Position numbers and translations under genes: made by a program. Positions 331 through 16,504 of a DNA stretch of 16,504 bases are shown piece after piece. This stretch comes from a virus (lineage: Duplodnaviria > Heunggongvirae > Uroviricota > Caudoviricetes), in the IMG/VR virus record IMGVR_UViG_2778261083_000002. The stretch is one strand, 5' to 3'. The notes under the pieces are model-generated. The model was not told the origin of the DNA, made no database searches, and was given only the letters and a program-made list of their open reading frames with translations. Every line of letters starts with the position of its first letter. Within the stretch, counting starts at the first letter, position 1.

Positions 331-668
331 CAGATCACCACTTCGTCAAACTGACACGAAAAATCGGTATAGGTGATATGTTCTGTCGCTGACCACGTTC
401 GACACACCACTCTGATTTTTCTGTTAATACCCGGCGGGCGCCAAAAAAAAGATTTATAGCCTTCATGCCGGGCTAAAAATTTTTCAAATGAATCACGTTC
501 ATTCGCCTCAACTTTGAAATCACAGGTGAAAACGCGCAGAGAATGATTAAGTCCATTTGGACTTCGTTGCTCATAACCATCGCCAAATCTTACAGTTTTT
601 ATCGATGGTTTATTTTCTGTTTTCATTCCATCCTCTGGTAACCAGTGAAATTCTTCCGTATTAGCCAC
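330..668 (-). CDS. M: Minor tail protein M (lambda gpM-like)
   Basis: ORF contains [23 protein letters not shown], matching the VRFGDGY region of lambda gpM as I recall it. Track start at 668 is a GTG overlapping the tape measure stop by 8 nt; an alternative ATG at 626..624 (MKTEN...) has a GAGGA ribosome-binding site. Start is ambiguous, stop is at 330. Confidence 0.85.
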
Positions 669-3600
669 TTAACATTCCCCCATCACGTCGCATATTTAAC
701 AGATTGCCCTGCACCCGCTGATCAACCATCCCCATAAGTGCTTTTATTGCCTGAGGGCCAATCTCTCCATTCTGGCCGTCATTTTGAATAGTGATTTGGT
801 ATACAGGGGCATAGGTAATATCTCCGCCTCCATTACCACTTTTACTATTAATAGCTCTGACACCAAGAGAACCATCGGAAGTTCGTGTTAATGGCATAAT
901 GGCTTCCGGTCCAGCCTCACCAAAAACACCAGCCCCTTTTGCAAAAGCAAAAAATTGCGGGGAATCATAAATACCGTTCGAATACGTGCTCAATGACGGA
1001 GACTCATAAACACCGCCCTTTGCATTCGGAATAAATTTACTAATAGCACTCCCGATAGTTCCTAAAATCCCCCCAGAAGAACTGTTACTAATGCTGTCGA
1101 AAATCCCAGTAATTGAAGCCTTTAATGCTATTCGACTAAGATCCGAAATCACGGAAGTAGCGAAAGAACGAAAATTTGCCTTGCCTGTCGTGACAAAATC
1201 ACCCAGCGCATCGGTCATCCCATCAAACATCTGAGTCGTGGTTGATTTTATCTGCTCACTGATATCCTTAGTGTCATCCAGCCAGTTATTGAATCCCTGG
1301 GAGGCACCACTAACCCAGTCTCCTGCCTGAATATCGAGCTGCTCGTTTTTCTGTCTGACAATTTCTTTTTCCCGTTCCAGAGCATCATTCAGAGCCTGCA
1401 TTTTCTCTTGAAAAACATGATCTGACATTCCACGGGATTTATCTGCATAGTCACGTTCAAGTTGCAGACGCTGATTGTTATATCCATGTTCAATCCGCAG
1501 TAATTCCTGCTGGCGTTGCTGATTTTTATCGCCAACCCCATAACCAGCAATCTGAATATCATACCCCTGCTGACGATTATCAATCGAAGCCTGCAATGAA
1601 TCACGCCATGCTGTTATTTCGGCGGATTCCTTGATTAGCCTGTTATTTTTTTCAATCGCAACATTTTTCTCCATCAACGTGGTTATTTCTTCCCGGTGTA
1701 AGAGAAGCGATTTCTGATCCTGGGTTAATTTCGATGATGGTCGTGACTCTAGGTCGGCAATCCGCTGACGCCACTTAACCAGTTCCTGTTCAGAGGAACT
1801 TAATTTAACGGTCAACTCAGCTTGTGAACTTAGTAACGCATTCTGTTGATTCAGATGATCAATCATTCGTTGGGCTGCATCATCAGAATAATCTTTCGCC
1901 TTTGGTTGCTTTGGATCTTTATAACGCTCATTTATTTGAGCGATAAGATTATTATATTCTTCCTTTGAATACTGATTCTTTAGCTTTTCCAGTTTTGCAA
2001 GTTCACTAGCTCTCTGCTGCTCCCGGGTCTGATATTGTTTTGAAAAGGCATCTGCTCTCTGTCTGAGTTCAATTCCTTCCTGTTGTCGCTTGTTGTAATC
2101 GTTTATTGATGAATTTAGTACGTCCTGAGCAATTTTTTCTGCTTGAAGTACGCCCAATTGCTGCTTTAATCGTGCCAGCCTTTTATTTTGAGCTCCGCCA
2201 TCTCCAATGCCACCTAACCCGAAAACTCCGGATCGGGTATTTTTTTCTATTTCATCAATTTGACGGAGAACATCTGAGATTTTTTGATCAAGGGAGGCCT
2301 CACGGCCAATATCCAGCATGGAATCCCATGCCCATTTTGCGGAGTCTGCGACAGCTTTCCATGCAGTCTCAAGATAACCAAGATTTTCTTTAATCTGGTT
2401 GGTGCGCTGGATCATTGAGGATGAGTATTCTTCTGTCGCAATGCGGGCGGCCTCCTGCTGGTTCCCTTCATCCTGTAGCGCCTTAATCTGGTTATAAGTC
2501 GCAAGTGTCAGAAAATGGTACTGATCATTAAGTTTTGATATGGCACTGACAGGATCCTTTGCAATTTCATTGAAGTCATTAACCAGTTGTTCGGTTGATA
2601 TTCCTGTTACTTCGCTCGTTTTTACTATCGCTGTCGTCACTTGCTCCAGCGAACTGCTCGCTACCTTTCCCGAACGCACAAGCTGATTTAATACTGCCGC
2701 CGCAGCACCAGTTGTCGAATCAGCCGCATTCCCGGCACGTTGAGCTAAATCGCCCAATTGCCCGCTGGTTGTCCCCAACTGATTTCCGGTAAGAATAAGA
2801 GATTTATTAAATTCGTCCTGCTCCTGAGAGCCTTTATAGTAAGCCAGTCCTAAGACCCCAACGGCTGCTGCGGCCAGGGTAAAAGGATTAATTAATCCCA
2901 GCACATAAGAACCTACCCCTTTGATCGCCGGGCCAATCCCACCGAACATATCTTTTAGCTGGCCGCCCTGCTGCATTAACACCATAAATGGCGACTGACC
3001 AGTGGACAACCCAACAACAATATCCGTCATTTGTGCAGGCAACATGCGCATAGCAAAAGCCGTTTGTTTTGCCGACATTCCGGTTTTGCTTAATTGTGAT
3101 TGAGTAACCTCAAGCTCACTCCGCATAGCACGAAGTTTTCCAGAAAGCTCCTCATACATTTCAGGAGAAAGCATCCCCTTAGCTTTTGCTTCATTGAGCT
3201 GTTTCTGTTGTTCTACCAGACGATTAAAAGCAGTTCCGACAGGATCAAGTTGAGCAATCAGACGTTGCAAAGCAACAACCTGTTCATCATGCGCTTTTGC
3301 TGCTTCTCGCTCTGCCTGAGCCTCTCCGGTAAGCTCTCGCCGTGTTTCCTGTATTTTTCGGCTATAATTCTCAAACTGAGAACCATTTATTTTCCCGGAT
3401 GCAAACGCAGCATTAAGTTCATCATGCTGTTGTTCAAGATTTCTTAGCGCCGCAGCCAGAGGGTCGATCTTGTCCAGCATTCTTTGAAAGGCCTGAGCCT
3501 GCGCTTCCTGCTGGGCGGCAGCAAGTTTTCCGGCCTTCTCGGCTTCTCTCTGCGCTTGCGCAACCCCGCTCAATTCCTCTGTGGTTTCATTAAGTTTACG

Positions 3601-3894
3601 GACAAGAAATTCATATTCTTCTTTATCAATAAGCCCTTTATCGAAAAATTTCTTTAATTCAGAATAGCGTCGACCGACAGTATCAATTGCGGCACCAACT
3701 GGATCAATAGCTGCTTTTAATTTTGCGAGCGCGTTCTTCTCATCTTCTGTTGCCTTAGTCACTTTCCCTGCGCTATTTGCAGCAGTTTCCCCAGCCTGCG
3801 TCATTTTGACTAATGAGGAGGTCAGATTGTCAGCATTATTTTTCGCTCCAGTGCTATCAATAATTATTGCGAGACGCGAGGTTTGCTCTGCCAT
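661..3894 (-). CDS. Tail tape measure protein (1077 aa)
   Basis: Long alpha-helical, Ala/Gln/Glu-rich protein with three tandem internal repeats (IDP.G.A...RK..ET..EL.G.AQA.REA.KA), a hydrophobic Gly-rich segment, and a C-terminal region resembling the lambda gpH C-terminus ([17 protein letters not shown]). AGGAG ribosome-binding site 8 nt upstream of ATG 3894. Sits between the G/GT chaperones and M. Confidence 0.9.
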
Positions 3895-3941: not shown

Positions 3942-4059
3942 GGCGACATAATAGTAGATATAGCGATTACGAGGCCACGCAATGCTTTTCTCCAGGAGCA
4001 TCATCGATTTAATTAAAGACACCATCACATCTCTGTAACAGAGTGTACGTAATTAACAA

Positions 4060-12249: not shown

Positions 12250-13551
12250 TTAAATCCGAAGTGATGTGACTCTTCCGGTCGGTTTGACAATAGGGAATTG
12301 CTTAACGATGAAATAACCTCCGGCATCATTCGGGTGATCATTGCCAGATTTTTTATCAGGCTCCCCCTTATCATCCCAGACCTGTTGCTCCAGAGATTCG
12401 GCATATACCGGACAACGCTTCACATTAACTTTATAGCGACGCTCACCATTGGCATTGCAGAACATTGCATTCATTGAGTTAACGCGATCTTTTACTGGCG
12501 GGTTCGAGCTGTTCACCACAACGTTAAAACCTGCCTGCTTAAGCTGGGCTATATCCGTCGTACTTGCGTTACTTGATTTTCTGGAATCTCCGGAAGCATC
12601 TGGATAAATATAAATCTCCCTCACTTTCCGGTAATCATGCCCGTCATACAGCCAGAAGCGTTCTTTAATGAGGCGGATCATATCCGGCGTATCGTAGGCA
12701 TTGATGATTTCAGTTACCGCACATGGAAGCCCCAAACGCAGCACATGGACGATTCCCGCCATCTTTCCAACGTTAAAATCCATCCCAATATAAATCGGCT
12801 CCCCTGGCTGCTCCACTTCTTCGCAATTATTCAGTTTCCGGTCAAACTGATGGTAAACAGTACCACTTGTCAGGTTAGTAAACCGTCCTAGAAGATAGGC
12901 TTTAATCAGCTCTGGAGGGTATGATTCAAGAAGTGAAGGAATGTAATCTGCTGGCAGGTTCTTTTCATTATCGAAAGTAGATGCCTGCACCAGACCATAC
13001 AGTGAGGCCAGCTCTGTTTTTTCACGCACGGCTTTAACAAACTGCTCGTAGACAAATTTGAATCCTTCCGGCGTGGTTGTAACGTCAATACCGTTGCGAA
13101 GTCCATCAATCTTATAACGCATACGCGCAATTATCTTGCGCCACGCCGTTCTGGCTTTTTCCTTCGGCAAAATGTCCAGTTCATCCACCAGCGCATTACC
13201 AATTTTGAAACCGACGATCGTTTGTGGCTTCTCCATCGATCTGCAGATAGTGGTTCCCCGATACTGGCGTCCGTAATAAAAGTGAACCTCTTTATTTCCC
13301 TCATTAATTTTTACGTTCAATCCCCAGTCAGCAGCAACTTCTTCCACTGTAGGGTAAAAAATATCGCGAATTTGGGGATACGTTGGCGCAAAATATCCCT
13401 GATTTATACCTGGATGCTCCCAAATCCCCTTGCATATGCCGCCACACCCAACCCATGTTTTGCCCGAGCCAAAACCAGCAATATAGGCTTTAAATTTATG
13501 GGGCATTGAAAGAAATCGCGCCTGAGGCACATTAAGCGTCGGAGAGATCAT
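12250..13551 (-). CDS. Terminase large subunit
   Basis: Walker A AGFGSGKT near the N-terminus, Walker B-like LVDELD, and a C-terminal nuclease-like region (IYIGMDFN). Preferred start is ATG 13551 (MISPTLNV...) with AAGGAG 8 nt upstream; the track start at 13560 is GTG. Overlaps the terS 3' end by 20 nt. Confidence 0.9.
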   Translation of the reverse strand: MISPTLNVPQARFLSMPHKFKAYIAGFGSGKTWVGCGGICKGIWEHPGINQGYFAPTYPQIRDIFYPTVEEVAADWGLNVKINEGNKEVHFYYGRQYRGTTICRSMEKPQTIVGFKIGNALVDELDILPKEKARTAWRKIIARMRYKIDGLRNGIDVTTTPEGFKFVYEQFVKAVREKTELASLYGLVQASTFDNEKNLPADYIPSLLESYPPELIKAYLLGRFTNLTSGTVYHQFDRKLNNCEEVEQPGEPIYIGMDFNVGKMAGIVHVLRLGLPCAVTEIINAYDTPDMIRLIKERFWLYDGHDYRKVREIYIYPDASGDSRKSSNASTTDIAQLKQAGFNVVVNSSNPPVKDRVNSMNAMFCNANGERRYKVNVKRCPVYAESLEQQVWDDKGEPDKKSGNDHPNDAGGYFIVKQFPIVKPTGRVTSLRI

Positions 13552-14626
13552 CTTCATCACTCCTTAATCTGGCATCAACCACATTAATATTGATCGCCAC
13601 AGGCTGGGGATGTTCATTATCCTCCACCGTTTCGATCTCTTTGCGCAGCTTCTGGTTCTCTATTCTGCGCCGTTCAATTTCCAGTTCCTGTAGCCGCTTA
13701 TCTGCACATAATGCCCCGCCAGCAGAAAGCAAACGCAACAATTCACGCCGGGCGGCAGCCTTATCCTCCAGCAGGATCTCAACACCGTATTTTCCGAGCT
13801 TTGACCCTGCATATAATTGCCGCGCATCCCCATCAAGCAGTGTGGTATCAGCCATATAAAGCTGTCCTGTTCCCTCACCGCAGCACTTCGGGCAATCAGG
13901 ATTGGGTATGGCGTTATCAACAAAGCCGAGGCCTCCATATTCCGGCTCGGGTTTACCATCTCTGGAGGCCTGTGCCGCAGCCTTATCGAATTCTGCAATA
14001 TCACGCCACTGGTAGAGATGATTCTCGCCCCAGCAATAACGGCAGTTAACACGGCGAAATTGTGCCAACTGATTGGGGTCGGCCTGGACAATGGCCATCA
14101 ACTGGCTCACCAGTAAATCCAGGTCTGCGGTATAGCGTTTCTGGTACTGATTGCGGAAGTAGCTGATAGCACGATAAACCCTGGCATTTCTAAGCATACG
14201 GCTGGCGTTGCTGTTAGCTGTCGCACCTTGCCCCTCATAACCAGCCAGTCGGTATGCCTCTGTCGGCTTTTTCCCCTGAGCAACCAACATGGCGAATTTT
14301 GCCTGCTGGTCAGAAATACCGAATTCATCGGGGCAGAACGAAATTTCTTCCGTGTCCCCCTCAATCAGGAGTGCATCGGATACAGCCTTTTTTTTCTGAG
14401 ATTTTCCGTTCTGCCTTTGCGCAGTCTGCGCAGTTTTTTTTCGCGCACTTTTTTGCGCAGTTTTGCGCATTTCTTTCTGCGCATTTTTCGGAGTTTTTTT
14501 GATGTAACGACGGGCTGTTGCGTAGTTCAGTCCCCTTGCTTCACACCATGCCACCGGAGATATACCGGAGCGGGTGTATTCAGCAATATACTCCTGCTGC
14601 AACGCCCCCCAGTCCGGTCTGCTCAT
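13532..14626 (-). CDS. Terminase small subunit, atypically long (364 aa)
   Basis: Central segment QQAKFAMLVAQGKKPTEAYRLAGYEGQGATANSNASRML resembles the HTH core of small terminase subunits. It is preceded by a second, similar HTH-like N-terminal segment (YIAEYTRSGISPVAWCEARGLNYATARRYI) and a Lys/Ala/Gln-rich linker, and followed by a Cys4 motif (CRYCWGE ... CPKCCGEG). Directly upstream of the large subunit. Confidence 0.8.
   Translation of the reverse strand: MSRPDWGALQQEYIAEYTRSGISPVAWCEARGLNYATARRYIKKTPKNAQKEMRKTAQKSARKKTAQTAQRQNGKSQKKKAVSDALLIEGDTEEISFCPDEFGISDQQAKFAMLVAQGKKPTEAYRLAGYEGQGATANSNASRMLRNARVYRAISYFRNQYQKRYTADLDLLVSQLMAIVQADPNQLAQFRRVNCRYCWGENHLYQWRDIAEFDKAAAQASRDGKPEPEYGGLGFVDNAIPNPDCPKCCGEGTGQLYMADTTLLDGDARQLYAGSKLGKYGVEILLEDKAAARRELLRLLSAGGALCADKRLQELEIERRRIENQKLRKEIETVEDNEHPQPVAININVVDARLRSDEDDLSDA
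14418..14483. repeat. Array of six TGCGCA-type palindromic hexamers separated by T/A homopolymer tracts, inside the terS 5' region
   Basis: TGCGCA at 14418, 14427, 14454, 14464 and 14478, plus CGCGCA at 14442. Spacings are 9-15 bp, with T7-T8 runs at 14390-14397, 14434-14441 and 14494-14500. Extended consensus is TYTGCGCAK. Confidence 0.7.
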
Positions 14627-14629
14627 CAG

Positions 14630-14881
14630 TTAGTCCTGATTTTTATCCACCCTGAGTAGTTCGCGCAGAGCAAAGGCATCCCCTTTTCTGGCAAGCTTAA
14701 ACAATGCCGCTCGTAACTCGGCTTCACCTTTCGCTCTGCCCTTACGGATGGCCGCATAAAAATCTGTCATTGCTTCCCGATTTTCTTTCAGTCGGTTCAG
14801 ATCAACATCCAGAACGTCAGCGATTTGTTGTGCAGTCATCCGGCACGCTGCCAGAGACTCGACTTTCGAATACGGAATCAT
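14630..14881 (-). CDS. Small HTH-like protein (about 69-83 aa), function unknown
   Basis: ORF immediately upstream of terS. The segment MTAQQIADVLDVDLNRLKENRE resembles the N-terminal HTH of lambda Nu1-type small terminase or excisionase-like proteins. Start is ambiguous (14881 or ATG 14839), and it overlaps the 3' end of the upstream gene in another frame. Confidence 0.55.
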   Translation of the reverse strand: MIPYSKVESLAACRMTAQQIADVLDVDLNRLKENREAMTDFYAAIRKGRAKGEAELRAALFKLARKGDAFALRELLRVDKNQD

Positions 14882-15749
14882 TTGTCACCCCCATTGATAT
14901 GCAGGGTGTCTTCTTCCTGTATTTTTCGTGAAGGATTTTTACTGCAGCGTTGTTCCAGGTGACCTGATGGTGAATGCGTTTATGGCTGGCACCCATCAGT
15001 GAGATTTTTACGCACGACGGCGAATACATGACGGAGTAAAAACTTTTAACGTAGGTTCCGGAATCCAGATACAGCTCGGTCATTCCGCCGCTGTTTTTCT
15101 GCGTCTGTTTCTGCCCTAACTGGACAGCACCGATCGTCATAAACAATTCACCACAGCGACCGAGATTCGTGTACGTATTCACATCCTCGTTAATGCGCCC
15201 CATGAATGAGAACGGTCGATCAACCGAACAGATAAAGCTGTTCATTGCCTTGCGTTTCACCCACGAAGCATGGCCGCCATTGTCACCAAGAAAATCCCCG
15301 CCCTGCGACATAGCGATGGAAAGCGCGGGTATTGATTCGTAATACGCCAGCATTTCAGAAAGGATCGCATCCAGTTTCCTTATCGGGAAATAGGCCTGGT
15401 CATAGTTGCGATCCACCCGAAACTGGAACTCGTGAAAATCATCATCGAGCTGAATGAAGTATTTACACCCGACCAGTTTTGCCAGGTCGAAACAGGCATT
15501 ACGGGCGTAAAAAATTGAGCGGCGATCACCAAAATTATCGGCTTCGTCAAAACGACTGGCAATATCGGCTTTGGAAAATACCAGCACCTGTTCACCAAAT
15601 TCAGCCATGTACTGATGCCGTGTCTTATCTTCATCATCAACAACGATAAAAATTTTCCCGGTATAGCCAGCACGACGCAACGTCCGGTAAGTCAGAACTT
15701 TGTCCGGTCGCCCGTGAGTCAGAATAAAGGCGCAAAAATCATCACGCAT
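14817..15749 (-). CDS. Putative GT-A-like (DxD motif) nucleotide-sugar transferase; function unknown
   Basis: About 310 aa. Contains beta-strand-like FCAFILTHGRPD, an acidic-ended strand KIFIVVDDED, and YFIQLDDDF (DxD) with spacing reminiscent of the GT-A fold. Preferred start is ATG 15749 (MRDDF...), preceded by GGAGGAGGAGGAA, and it overlaps the ParB-like stop (ATGCGTGA). The in-frame track start at 15773 is an alternative. Confidence 0.6.
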   Translation of the reverse strand: MRDDFCAFILTHGRPDKVLTYRTLRRAGYTGKIFIVVDDEDKTRHQYMAEFGEQVLVFSKADIASRFDEADNFGDRRSIFYARNACFDLAKLVGCKYFIQLDDDFHEFQFRVDRNYDQAYFPIRKLDAILSEMLAYYESIPALSIAMSQGGDFLGDNGGHASWVKRKAMNSFICSVDRPFSFMGRINEDVNTYTNLGRCGELFMTIGAVQLGQKQTQKNSGGMTELYLDSGTYVKSFYSVMYSPSCVKISLMGASHKRIHHQVTWNNAAVKILHEKYRKKTPCISMGVTNDSVFESRVSGSVPDDCTTNR

Positions 15750-16497
15750 ATTCCTCCTCCTCCTCCCCGCCATGCATGATCTCCACCATGCGCTGCGTCA
15801 TTCGGACAAATCCATTTTCAATAGCCTGCTGATAATCAATGATCACCAGCGCCGACTCCTCGAAAAGGCACTGAATTTCAGCGGGGGCATGAGCGTAATA
15901 GTCCGCAATTCTGCTGAAATTAAACACTGTGTGACGTTCTGCCGCACACAGGAGGAATTTCTCAATATCAGGATCAAGGGACGCCGAACGTATCCGGCTG
16001 ATCAGCTCCTGAGTTTTCGTATCGTCGTACAGTTCACTGATATCCGGTTTACCGCCCGACGGCTCATAAACAGGCGTATCAATTTTCGTCGTATACGGCT
16101 CCTCCTCATTTCCTGTACCGGGCAAAACATCCGTCAACAGTTCATCAATTTCTGTCGGGATGAAGCCTGTCAGGGAGACATCAAAATCAGCATTGATTAG
16201 GTCCGACAGCTCCATCCGCAACAGATCTTCATCCCAGCCAGCATTCATCGGCAGGCGATTATCTGCCAGGCGGTACGCCTTTTTCTGCTCATCCGTCAGG
16301 CCAGACAGAACAATGACCGGAACAGAATCCATTTTGAGCATTTCAGCCGCCATAACACGACCGTGACCCGCAATAATTTCGCCCTTTTCGTCAATCAGCA
16401 CCGGATTAGTCCAGCCGAATTGCTTAAGGAAGGTGCGAACAAGTTCCTGATATGAGATCATCATATTCATCCGGAGCGCATCCCAGAGGGACATCAT
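15742..16497 (-). CDS. ParB-like nuclease-domain protein; N-terminus may extend beyond the window end
   Basis: N-terminal segment PVLIDEKGEIIAGHGRVMAAEMLKMDSVPVIVLSGLTDEQKKAYRLADNR resembles the ParB/sulfiredoxin nuclease domain (GxxR box). Acidic C-terminal tail GGEEEEEYA. The frame is still open for the two codons between 16497 and the window edge. Confidence 0.7.
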   Translation of the reverse strand: MMSLWDALRMNMMISYQELVRTFLKQFGWTNPVLIDEKGEIIAGHGRVMAAEMLKMDSVPVIVLSGLTDEQKKAYRLADNRLPMNAGWDEDLLRMELSDLINADFDVSLTGFIPTEIDELLTDVLPGTGNEEEPYTTKIDTPVYEPSGGKPDISELYDDTKTQELISRIRSASLDPDIEKFLLCAAERHTVFNFSRIADYYAHAPAEIQCLFEESALVIIDYQQAIENGFVRMTQRMVEIMHGGEEEEEYA

Positions 16498-16504
16498 GAG
16501 CCAT

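What the first reader, a model, noticed from the sequence alone, without database searches (positions are those of the whole stretch)
15742..15773. Poly-Glu C-terminal tail of the ParB-like protein doubles as the ribosome-binding site of the downstream transferase gene
The codons GAG GAG GAG GAG GAA TAT GCG TGA, encoding EEEEEYA and the stop, form a GGAGG-repeat ribosome-binding site for the ATG at 15749, which lies 2 nt upstream of that stop (ATGCGTGA). This is dual-use sequence and indicates tight translational coupling, supporting the idea that the two proteins function together.
Basis: seen in the sequence. Interest (0 to 1): 0.2.

Follow-up and report, generated by a model that had tools for sequence, protein, structure and literature searches.

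The report
Ribosome-binding site inside an acidic tail
The last Gly-Glu codons of a prophage ParB-like gene do spell the ribosome-binding site of the overlapping glycosyltransferase gene, which is a well-documented, ordinary way for bacteria and phages to link the translation of two partner genes.

Summary
On the minus strand, the ParB/Srx-like ORF ends ...GGC GGG GAG GAG GAG GAG GAA TAT GCG TGA (15771-15742). The downstream TAGT/GREB1-related glycosyltransferase starts at ATG 15749, giving the 8-nt overlap ATGCGTGA.

Three results favour 15749 over the in-frame ATG 15773:
- Homologues down to 60% identity begin MRDDFCAF.
- ATG 15773 is missing in some 99%-identical alleles.
- Its predicted SD is weak (-6.4 against -12.1 kcal/mol).

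In 97 non-redundant ParB-TAGT junctions from many phyla, 91 overlap, mostly by 8 or 11 nt.

The upstream tail is acidic everywhere, including Bacteroidota, which lack SD use. There it is Asp=Glu with no extra Gly. In Enterobacterales-like loci it is Glu+Gly-rich and enriched in GAG. So acidity looks ancestral at the protein level, and SD-using hosts spell it so that it reads GGAGG.

This is a textbook -8 (NTGNNTGA) junction with an intragenic SD. Coupling itself is inferred, not shown.

Caveat: in this window an IS5-family element (16428-16504) cuts off the first ~37 codons of the ParB gene. The (GAG)n run is polymorphic, giving 3-5 Glu; the window carries the longest allele seen.

The parts
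15742..16427 (-). 3' part of the ParB/Srx-like gene (ynaK family). It corresponds to codons ~38-264 of the intact 263/264-aa protein and ends HGGEEEEEYA-stop.
   Evidence: ORF listed. The alignment to intact copies shows homology starting at TTAAGCAATTC. An intact homologue scores 28.9 bits on PF02195 against a cutoff of 26.3, and matches phrog_620 at E 8.5e-91.
16428..16504 (.). End of an IS5-family insertion sequence (inverted repeat GGAAGGTGCGAAC...). The insH start ATGAGCCAT is on the + strand at 16496-16504 and reads away from ParB. The element interrupts the ParB gene.
   Evidence: 97.6-98.8% identity to IS5/insH in phage records (H11-H14). Breakpoint shown. Homology to Shigella locus L004 begins at base 78 of the minus strand.
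15751..15771 (-). Gly-Gly-Glu5 codons GGC GGG GAG GAG GAG GAG GAA. This is the acidic, predicted-disordered tail of ParB and the purine run that carries the Shine-Dalgarno repeats.
   Evidence: The last 32 residues have AF2 pLDDT below 50.
15753..15766 (-). (GGA)n Shine-Dalgarno repeat GGAGGAGGAGGAGG, with GGAGG registers 3, 6, 9 and 12 nt upstream of ATG 15749.
   Evidence: Unique in the window and found in 0 of 200 shuffles. Duplex dG -12.1 kcal/mol.
15742..15749 (-). 8-nt overlap ATGCGTGA, containing the TAGT start codon (15749-15747) and the ParB stop codon (15744-15742).
   Evidence: The -8 overlap is found in 48 of 97 non-redundant homologous junctions.
14817..15749 (-). TAGT / GREB1-related glycosyltransferase gene, 310 aa, starting MRDDFCAFILTHGRP.
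   Evidence: PF20691 E 1.7e-34, 120 bits. phrog_842 matches from residue 1. RefSeq WP_001204033.1 is 933 nt. DDD 102-104 is invariant.
15771..15773 (-). In-frame upstream ATG, rejected as the start. It is a by-product of the ParB codons CAT-GGC.
   Evidence: SD only -6.4 kcal/mol. Absent where ParB has CAT-AGC or CAC-GGC. Using it would add MAGRRRRN with four AGG codons.
14630..14881 (-). Small gene downstream of TAGT, resembling the N-terminal part of a terminase small subunit. It is followed by TerS (13532-14626) and TerL (12250-13560).
   Evidence: phrog_309. Terminase_2. Terminase_6N/6C.

Best explanation
This is an ordinary translationally linked gene junction in the late operon of a Rac-like lambdoid prophage of E. 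coli/Shigella.

The TAGT glycosyltransferase gene starts at ATG 15749, 8 nt before the end of the ParB/Srx-like gene (NTGNNTGA class). Its Shine-Dalgarno sequence is the (GGA)n run formed by the Gly-Gly-Glu-Glu-Glu-Glu-Glu codons of the ParB tail.

Ribosomes finishing ParB terminate 5 nt past the ATG. They can reinitiate there, or keep the site unfolded for a new 30S subunit. The strong, multi-register SD anchors them, so the two proteins are made from one message in linked amounts.

The acidic, disordered tail is an old protein-level feature of this ParB family, present in all phyla sampled. In SD-using hosts, selection has biased it to Gly/Glu residues and GAG codons so that the same bases read GGAGG.

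What is shown: the sequence, the start-codon choice, conservation of the overlap, conservation of the acidity, and the lineage-specific codon and residue bias.

What is inferred: that initiation actually depends on the SD and on upstream translation, and that the two proteins act together, by analogy with ParB-activated phage DNA-modifying enzymes.
For: - **Sequence and SD strength:**
- **Start codon:** RefSeq uses the 933-nt form. Pfam and PHROG profile position 1 aligns at MRDDF. 120 homologues start M-R-D-D-F-C-A-F. In-frame stops lie 0-2 codons upstream in L007, L034, L039, L047 and L070.
- **Conserved overlap:** 91 of 97 non-redundant junctions overlap (-8 x48, -11 x30, -4 x6, -14 x3). 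The upstream ORF is a ParB homologue in nearly all.
- **Terminal dipeptide:** [Y/D/N/H]-Ala-stop equals NAT-GCN-TGA, which is the embedded ATG-CGN-GA of the TAGT N-terminus MRD.
- **Acidity of the 10 residues before the overlapped ones:** 0.41 against 0.17 in the body (Enterobacterales-like, n=33); 0.30 against 0.19 (other phyla, n=38); 0.39 against 0.17 (Bacteroidota, 20 of 20 positive).
- **SD strength by group:** mean dG -10.5, -6.2 and -4.6, against a background of about -2.5.
- **GAG share of Glu codons, tail against body:** 0.67 against 0.51 (p 0.002); 0.60 against 0.43 (p 0.016); Bacteroidota 0.48 against 0.42 (not significant).
- **Tail composition:** Enterobacterales-like E 0.34, D 0.06, G 0.21. 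Bacteroidota E 0.20, D 0.20, G 0.03, with third-codon positions matching the gene body.
- **Literature:** -8 NTGNNTGA is a known enriched spacing (PMC12548453). An SD in the 3' end of the upstream gene is typical of overlapping pairs, is under 10% in Bacteroidetes, and its removal cut reinitiation by 60-100% in 4 of 5 E. coli pairs (PMC6728339). Phage ParB homologues activate cognate DNA-modifying enzymes (PMC13229309).
Against: - There are no expression data, so coupling and SD dependence are not measured.
- In this window the ParB gene has lost its first ~37 codons to an IS5 insertion. Here the upstream reading frame may be poorly translated or not translated at all, and TAGT may rely on direct initiation.
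- The single-locus codon test is weak: 4 GAG to 1 GAA in the tail, against 11:10 in the gene body and 0.42 GAG in the window's genes, p about 0.1.
- The family tests use related sequences, so the p-values overstate independence.
- The predicted local hairpin over the last SD copy and the ATG is marginal (z -2). It does not show that coupling is obligatory.
- One allele class (L124-L126) ends ParB at TAA 1 nt before the ATG. The overlap itself is therefore dispensable.
Confidence: 0.8

Rival explanations
1. The glycosyltransferase starts at the in-frame ATG 15773 using its own GGAG (7-nt spacing). This would give a 318-aa protein with an MAGRRRRN extension, and the GGAGG run would be coding sequence (Arg AGG codons) rather than an RBS.
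For: The ATG is in frame. GGAG lies 7 nt upstream with a duplex dG of -6.4 kcal/mol. The mechanical ORF list reports this longer ORF.
Against: - The extension is absent from all homologues.
- The ATG is lost in 10 of 66 near-identical loci and shifts with the repeat number.
- The Pfam and PHROG profiles start at MRDDF.
- It would need four consecutive AGG codons. AGG accounts for 19 of 257 Arg codons in the window's genes.
- RefSeq uses ATG 15749.
Confidence: 0.03
2. The acidic tail has no protein-level role. It exists only because a purine-rich RBS for the next gene has to be written in the last codons of ParB.
For: In Enterobacterales-like loci the tail is built from the residues whose codons make GGAGG (Glu 0.34, Gly 0.21, Asp 0.06), with GAG enriched. 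AF2 predicts the tail to be disordered. The Glu number varies from 3 to 5 between alleles.
Against: Bacteroidota homologues keep an equally acidic tail (0.39 against 0.17, 20 of 20). Yet their SD is weak or absent, Asp equals Glu, Gly is not enriched, and third-codon positions match the gene body. Bacteroidetes do not use an SD even at overlaps (PMC6728339).
Confidence: 0.12
3. There is no real coupling. The strong SD drives independent initiation of TAGT, and the 8-nt overlap is only genome compaction.
For: - The SD is very strong and offers several registers.
- The L124-type allele separates stop and start without losing the SD.
- In the window the upstream gene is broken while TAGT remains intact at 99.7% identity.
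- One of five tested E. coli overlapping pairs (bioBF) initiated de novo (PMC6728339).
Against: The overlap is kept in 91 of 97 junctions across phyla, including lineages without an SD. In 13 of 14 tested overlapping pairs translation was strictly coupled (PMC6728339).
Confidence: 0.25

Closest known systems
Overlapping co-directional gene pairs with -8 spacing (NTGNNTGA) and an intragenic Shine-Dalgarno sequence, translationally coupled by termination-reinitiation or RNA unfolding (Huber et al. 2019, PMC6728339; Huber et al. 2023, PMC10666635; Brown & Wade 2025, PMC12548453)
   Same: Same geometry (ATGCGTGA). The SD lies in the last codons of the upstream gene. The junction is conserved, and the partners are likely to act together.
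   Different: The SD is an unusually long trinucleotide repeat, (GGA)4-5. It is length-polymorphic and superimposed on a tail whose acidity is conserved for other reasons. Coupling has not been measured for this pair.
ParB-dependent phage 5mYOX thymine dioxygenases (O'Toole et al. 2026, PMC13229309)
   Same: A phage-encoded ParB homologue is encoded next to a DNA-modification-type enzyme and near terminase genes. It has an N-terminal ParB/Srx domain and a helical C-terminal domain, with no confident central DNA-binding domain in the model.
   Different: The partner here is a TAGT glycosyltransferase, not a dioxygenase. No TET/JBP gene was found among 55 upstream neighbours or in the window. 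Activation was not tested.
TET/JBP-associated glycosyltransferase family (Pfam PF20691; eukaryotic relative GREB1, PMC7968844)
   Same: Strong Pfam match (120 bits) and an invariant DDD motif.
   Different: It is not TET/JBP-associated here. It is paired with ParB and sits immediately upstream of TerS/TerL. The substrate is unknown.
Phage DNA methyltransferases with an N-terminal ParB-like domain (phrog_498; PADLOC MTase_II)
   Same: The ParB N-domain of this protein matches the N-terminal ~140 residues of those enzymes (E 1e-50 and 2e-38).
   Different: Here the ParB domain is a separate polypeptide. It is linked to its presumed enzyme partner by gene overlap rather than by fusion.

Membership tests
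Translationally coupled overlapping gene pair (-8, NTGNNTGA) with intragenic SD | Co-directional genes, with the downstream start codon 8 nt before the end of the upstream ORF | tested here: met
   ATGCGTGA at 15749-15742. RefSeq coordinates overlap by 8 nt.
Translationally coupled overlapping gene pair (-8, NTGNNTGA) with intragenic SD | SD complementary to the 16S 3' end, within the upstream coding sequence and at a functional spacing | tested here: met
   dG -12.1 kcal/mol. GGAGG lies at 6 and 9 nt, and also at 3 and 12 nt.
Translationally coupled overlapping gene pair (-8, NTGNNTGA) with intragenic SD | The junction is conserved among homologous gene pairs | tested here: met
   91 of 97 non-redundant junctions overlap, 48 of them by 8 nt.
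Translationally coupled overlapping gene pair (-8, NTGNNTGA) with intragenic SD | Downstream translation depends on translation of the upstream gene | not testable with these tools
   This needs reporter fusions with a premature stop in ParB. The predicted hairpin over the start site is only marginal.
ParB/Srx superfamily (PF02195) | Profile match above the curated threshold | tested here: met
   The intact homologue scores 28.9 bits against a cutoff of 26.3. The IS5-truncated window copy scores only 16.7 bits. Matches to PDB Noc/ParB/Spo0J N-domains reach E 1e-5.
ParB/Srx superfamily (PF02195) | Conserved GxxR nucleotide-binding motif | tested here: met
   G57, G59 and R60 (AGHGR) are invariant in 44 homologues.
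ParB/Srx superfamily (PF02195) | CTP binding and hydrolysis; parS or DNA binding | not testable with these tools
   No assay is available. The AF2 model shows no confident central HTH domain.
TAGT (PF20691) | Profile match above the curated threshold, and a GT-A type DxD motif | tested here: met
   120 bits against a cutoff of 27.5. D102, D103 and D104 are invariant in 27 homologues.
TAGT (PF20691) | Genomic association with a TET/JBP (5mYOX) dioxygenase | tested here: not met
   No PF12851 hit among 55 upstream neighbours, 53+43 downstream neighbours or the window's other genes. Only ±4 kb was sampled.
ParB-activated DNA-modifying enzyme pair (5mYOX/ParB type) | The partner enzyme requires the cognate ParB for activity on dsDNA | not testable with these tools
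   Only conserved adjacency and overlap are shown. The precedent is PMC13229309.

The most novel reading that the evidence does not exclude
The ParB-like protein and TAGT may form a self-contained, two-subunit DNA (or protein) glycosylation module. It would act at or just before genome packaging, and it is conserved upstream of non-homologous terminases in prophages of many phyla. It would work without any TET/JBP partner. The conserved acidic, disordered ParB tail would then be a functional element, for example docking onto TAGT or acting as a DNA-mimicking autoinhibitory tail. The embedded SD would be a secondary overlay. That would imply an uncharacterised modification made by very common E. 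coli/Shigella prophages.
Probability: 0.25. Interest if true: 0.6.

Novelty: new member of a known kind. Interest (0 to 1): 0.2.

Why it matters
As an RBS-in-coding-sequence junction it matters little, because this is a standard feature of operons. It has three practical uses.

- It fixes the true start of a very widespread prophage gene: 310 aa, present in at least 866 complete E. coli genomes.
- It gives a clean natural example of how an SD requirement reshapes the residue and codon choice of an upstream protein's tail. The Glu/Gly/GAG tail in Enterobacterales contrasts with the Asp=Glu tail in Bacteroidota, which do not use an SD.
- The conserved overlap is good genomic evidence that the ParB-like protein and TAGT are partners. 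That makes the pair a candidate for the ParB-activated DNA-modification enzymes reported in 2026.

Tried and rejected
- **Single-locus codon-bias test.** GAG 4 to GAA 1 in the tail, against 11:10 in the gene body. This is not significant (p about 0.1), so I moved to a family-wide test.
- **RNA folding of the initiation region.** It gives only a marginal hairpin (z -2). This is not evidence for obligatory coupling.
- **ParB-TAGT fusion by +1 frameshift at the stop codon (prfB-like).** Rejected by reading the sequence: GCG-TGA offers no re-pairing in the +1 frame. The one apparent fusion protein found (P0081) is a frameshifted, degenerate copy.
- **E. coli K-12 Rac prophage.** Checked for an experimentally studied copy. 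K-12 keeps only ynaK (87 aa) and ydaY and has lost this junction.
- **Literature search.** 'TET-associated glycosyltransferase' with ParB returned nothing. The Iyer/Aravind 2013 paper that named TAGT was not retrievable in the library.
- **NCBIfam and PADLOC.** No named family or defence system for TAGT.
- **PDB sequence search.** No solved relative of TAGT.
- **Same IS5 insertion elsewhere.** Not found in any fetched locus or at the top of the E. coli genome hits.
- **Alleles with more than 5 Glu.** None among 120 IMG/VR contigs.

Full report
**What is in the sequence**

Both genes lie on the minus strand. The upstream ORF ends ATC ATG CAT GGC GGG GAG GAG GAG GAG GAA TAT GCG TGA, encoding IMHGGEEEEEYA-stop, with the stop at 15744-15742. 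ATG 15749-15747 sits inside TAT-GCG. The two ORFs therefore share the 8 bases ATGCGTGA.

The run GGAGGAGGAGGAGG (15766-15753) is unique in the window and was never reached in 200 shuffles. It places GGAGG at 3, 6, 9 and 12 nt from the ATG. Its predicted duplex with the 16S 3' end is -12.1 kcal/mol, the strongest among the window's gene starts.

**What the genes are**

- **Downstream protein.** It belongs to the TET-associated glycosyltransferase family: PF20691 at 120 bits, phrog_842, named 'GREB1-related protein' in RefSeq. Its DDD motif is invariant.
- **Upstream protein.** It is a ParB/Srx-like protein of the ynaK family. An intact copy (263 aa, phage vB_EcoS-606R9) passes the Pfam threshold (28.9 against 26.3 bits). 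It matches phrog_620 over its full length.
- **ParB N-domain.** It resembles the ParB-like N-terminus of phage DNA methyltransferases (phrog_498; PADLOC MTase_II, E 2e-38). It also resembles the CTPase domain of Noc/ParB/Spo0J in the PDB (E 1e-5).
- **AF2 model.** The model has a confident N-domain, a disordered linker (137-164), a helical C-domain, and a low-confidence last 32 residues that include the acidic tail.
- **Genomic setting.** The window is the late region of a Rac-like lambdoid prophage. The gene order is ParB', TAGT, a small gene, TerS, TerL, portal, Mu-F-like, scaffold, coat, tail tube, tape measure and minor tail. Region 14600-16504 is at least 80% covered in 866 of 5,426 complete E. 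coli genomes. The prophage part of the window's minus strand (its first 5.7 kb) is 99.75% identical to a Shigella flexneri locus.

Window 16428-16504 is the end of an IS5-family element. It begins with the inverted repeat GGAAGGTGCGAAC, and the insH start is on the + strand at 16496. The first ~37 codons of ParB are therefore missing here. The 251-aa ORF in the mechanical list starts with 24 IS-derived residues. The reading frame stays open to the window edge, but whether it is translated is unknown. TAGT itself is intact.

**Which start codon**

All the evidence points to ATG 15749.

- RefSeq annotates 933 nt.
- The Pfam and PHROG profiles begin at MRDDF.
- The 120 best homologues, down to 60% identity, begin M-R-D-D-F-C-A-F with at most a few extra residues.
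- In several relatives an in-frame stop lies 0-2 codons upstream of that Met.
- The rival ATG 15773 is made by the ParB codons CAT-GGC. It shifts with the repeat number, and it is absent in 10 of 66 near-identical loci where ParB reads CAT-AGC or CAC-GGC.
- The rival has only a GGAG with -6.4 kcal/mol.
- Using it would prepend four AGG codons, which are rare (19 of 257 Arg codons in the window's genes).

**Is the junction conserved?**

I collected 76 loci from one-genome-per-species contigs across many phyla and 80 IMG/VR loci. Together with three annotated E. coli and phage records fetched earlier, they give 97 non-redundant junctions, of which 91 overlap. The overlaps are 8 nt (48), 11 nt (30), 4 nt (6) and 14 nt (3), plus four single cases of other lengths. 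The upstream ORF is a ParB homologue in almost every case.

The last residues of ParB are set by the overlap. [Y/D/N/H]-Ala-stop is NAT-GCN-TGA, which is the embedded ATG-CGN-GA of the TAGT N-terminus MRD.

The second gene downstream of TAGT is a terminase in about 40 of 43 loci. These terminases come from unrelated families: Terminase_6N in 17, Terminase_3 in 12, GpA in 3, and small subunits in 7. Upstream neighbours vary, and none is a TET/JBP enzyme. ParB-TAGT is thus a conserved two-gene module at the head of the packaging genes.

**Is the tail there for the protein or for the RBS?**

I compared the ten residues before the overlapped ones with the rest of each protein.

| Measure | Enterobacterales-like (n=33) | Other phyla (n=38) | Bacteroidota (n=20) |
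|---|---|---|---|
| D/E fraction, tail vs body | 0.41 vs 0.17 | 0.30 vs 0.19 | 0.39 vs 0.17 (20/20 positive) |
| Mean SD dG, kcal/mol (background about -2.5) | -10.5 | -6.2 | -4.6 |
| GAG share of Glu codons, tail vs body | 0.67 vs 0.51 (p 0.002) | 0.60 vs 0.43 (p 0.016) | 0.48 vs 0.42 (n.s.) |
| Composition of the last 8 such residues (E / D / G) | 0.34 / 0.06 / 0.21 | 0.21 / 0.11 / 0.12 | 0.20 / 0.20 / 0.03 |

Acidity is enriched about two-fold in Enterobacterales-like and Bacteroidota loci and about 1.5-fold in the other phyla. That includes Bacteroidota, which do not use an SD even at overlaps (PMC6728339). In Bacteroidota the third-codon positions of the tail match the gene body.

The simplest reading has two layers. 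Acidity is an old, protein-level property of this ParB family. In SD-using hosts, the choice among acidic residues, the added glycines and the synonymous codons have been bent to spell GGAGG. This is genuine dual use.

Caveats: the sequences are phylogenetically related, so the p-values are optimistic. The window alone gives only p about 0.1.

**Repeat polymorphism**

The window carries the longest allele. Alleles with identical flanks differ by whole GAG units, as expected from slippage. Units are gained or lost upstream, so the distance from the 3'-most GGAGG to the ATG does not change.

One allele class (L124-L126) has GAA mutated to TAA. ParB then ends 1 nt before the ATG, and the SD is retained.

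**Mechanism and comparison with what is known**

- The -8 NTGNNTGA spacing is one of three enriched overlap classes in prokaryotes (PMC12548453).
- An SD within the 3' end of the upstream gene is the norm for overlapping pairs.
- In E. coli, 4 of 5 tested pairs were coupled, and removing the SD cut reinitiation by 60-100% in 4 of 5 (PMC6728339).
- Such pairs often encode subunits of complexes (PMC10666635).

The junction is therefore a new example of a well-known kind. Coupling here remains an inference. The predicted hairpin over the start site is marginal, the SD is strong enough for independent initiation, and in this genome the upstream gene is broken.

The idea that the two proteins act together is supported by the cross-phylum adjacency. 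It also has a 2026 precedent: phage ParB homologues are required activators of cognate thymine dioxygenases on dsDNA (PMC13229309). What TAGT modifies in prophages without a TET/JBP enzyme is unknown.

**Verdict**

Coupling is inferred rather than shown. The tail's acidity predates the RBS. The ParB gene is IS5-disrupted in this window. Interest is low for the junction as such. A moderate-interest question remains about the ParB-TAGT module and its acidic tail.

Noticed in passing
window 16428-16504: The end of an IS5-family element (IR GGAAGGTGCGAAC; insH start on the + strand at 16496) is inserted at a TTAA in the ParB/ynaK-like gene. It removes the first ~37 codons. No fetched locus, and none of the top E. 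coli genome hits, carries this insertion.
   Followed up: yes
window 15751-15765, and L080-L239: The (GAG)n run is a length-polymorphic trinucleotide repeat. Among 120 IMG/VR contigs there are 3 Glu in 38, 4 Glu in 70 and 5 Glu in 12. The window has the longest allele.
   Followed up: yes
window 14817-14900; L146, L147, L154: In relatives, TAGT ends ...IGGGK-stop, with an ATGA overlap onto the next gene (MIPY...). This is the same Gly-codon/SD arrangement at the next junction. In the window lineage TAGT has a ~25-codon C-terminal extension. The next gene probably starts at ATG 14881 (MIPYSKVESLAACRM, 83 aa, 65-nt overlap) rather than at the RefSeq start equivalent to 14839 (69 aa).
   Followed up: partly
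L001 4143-4937 (NZ_CP026755.1): PGAP annotates only the first 258 nt of an apparently intact ParB-like ORF, as a 'ynaK' pseudogene 'missing C-terminus'. About 530 nt up to the TAGT start are left unannotated. The likely reason is that the truncated 87-aa K-12 YnaK serves as the reference.
   Followed up: partly
L004-L079 (±4 kb around TAGT): The ParB-TAGT pair sits directly upstream of small and large terminase genes of several unrelated families, in prophages from Proteobacteria, Bacteroidota, Firmicutes, Verrucomicrobiota, Planctomycetota and others. No TET/JBP gene lies nearby.
   Followed up: partly
L124-L126, junction at about 3990-4001: This allele has GAA mutated to TAA. ParB loses its last three residues (E-Y-A) and ends 1 nt before the TAGT ATG, while the SD is retained.
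   Followed up: no
window 661-668: The mechanical ORF list shows a second 8-nt overlap, between the tape-measure gene (661-3894) and the minor-tail gene (330-668, listed with a GTG start). I did not check this start.
   Followed up: no
P0081 (381 aa, metagenome contig): An apparent fusion of the ParB C-domain to TAGT. The junction reads ...LTKKWSISFTAKRAKMRDDF, which is a frameshift into the TAGT frame in a degenerate copy and not a real fusion architecture.
   Followed up: partly
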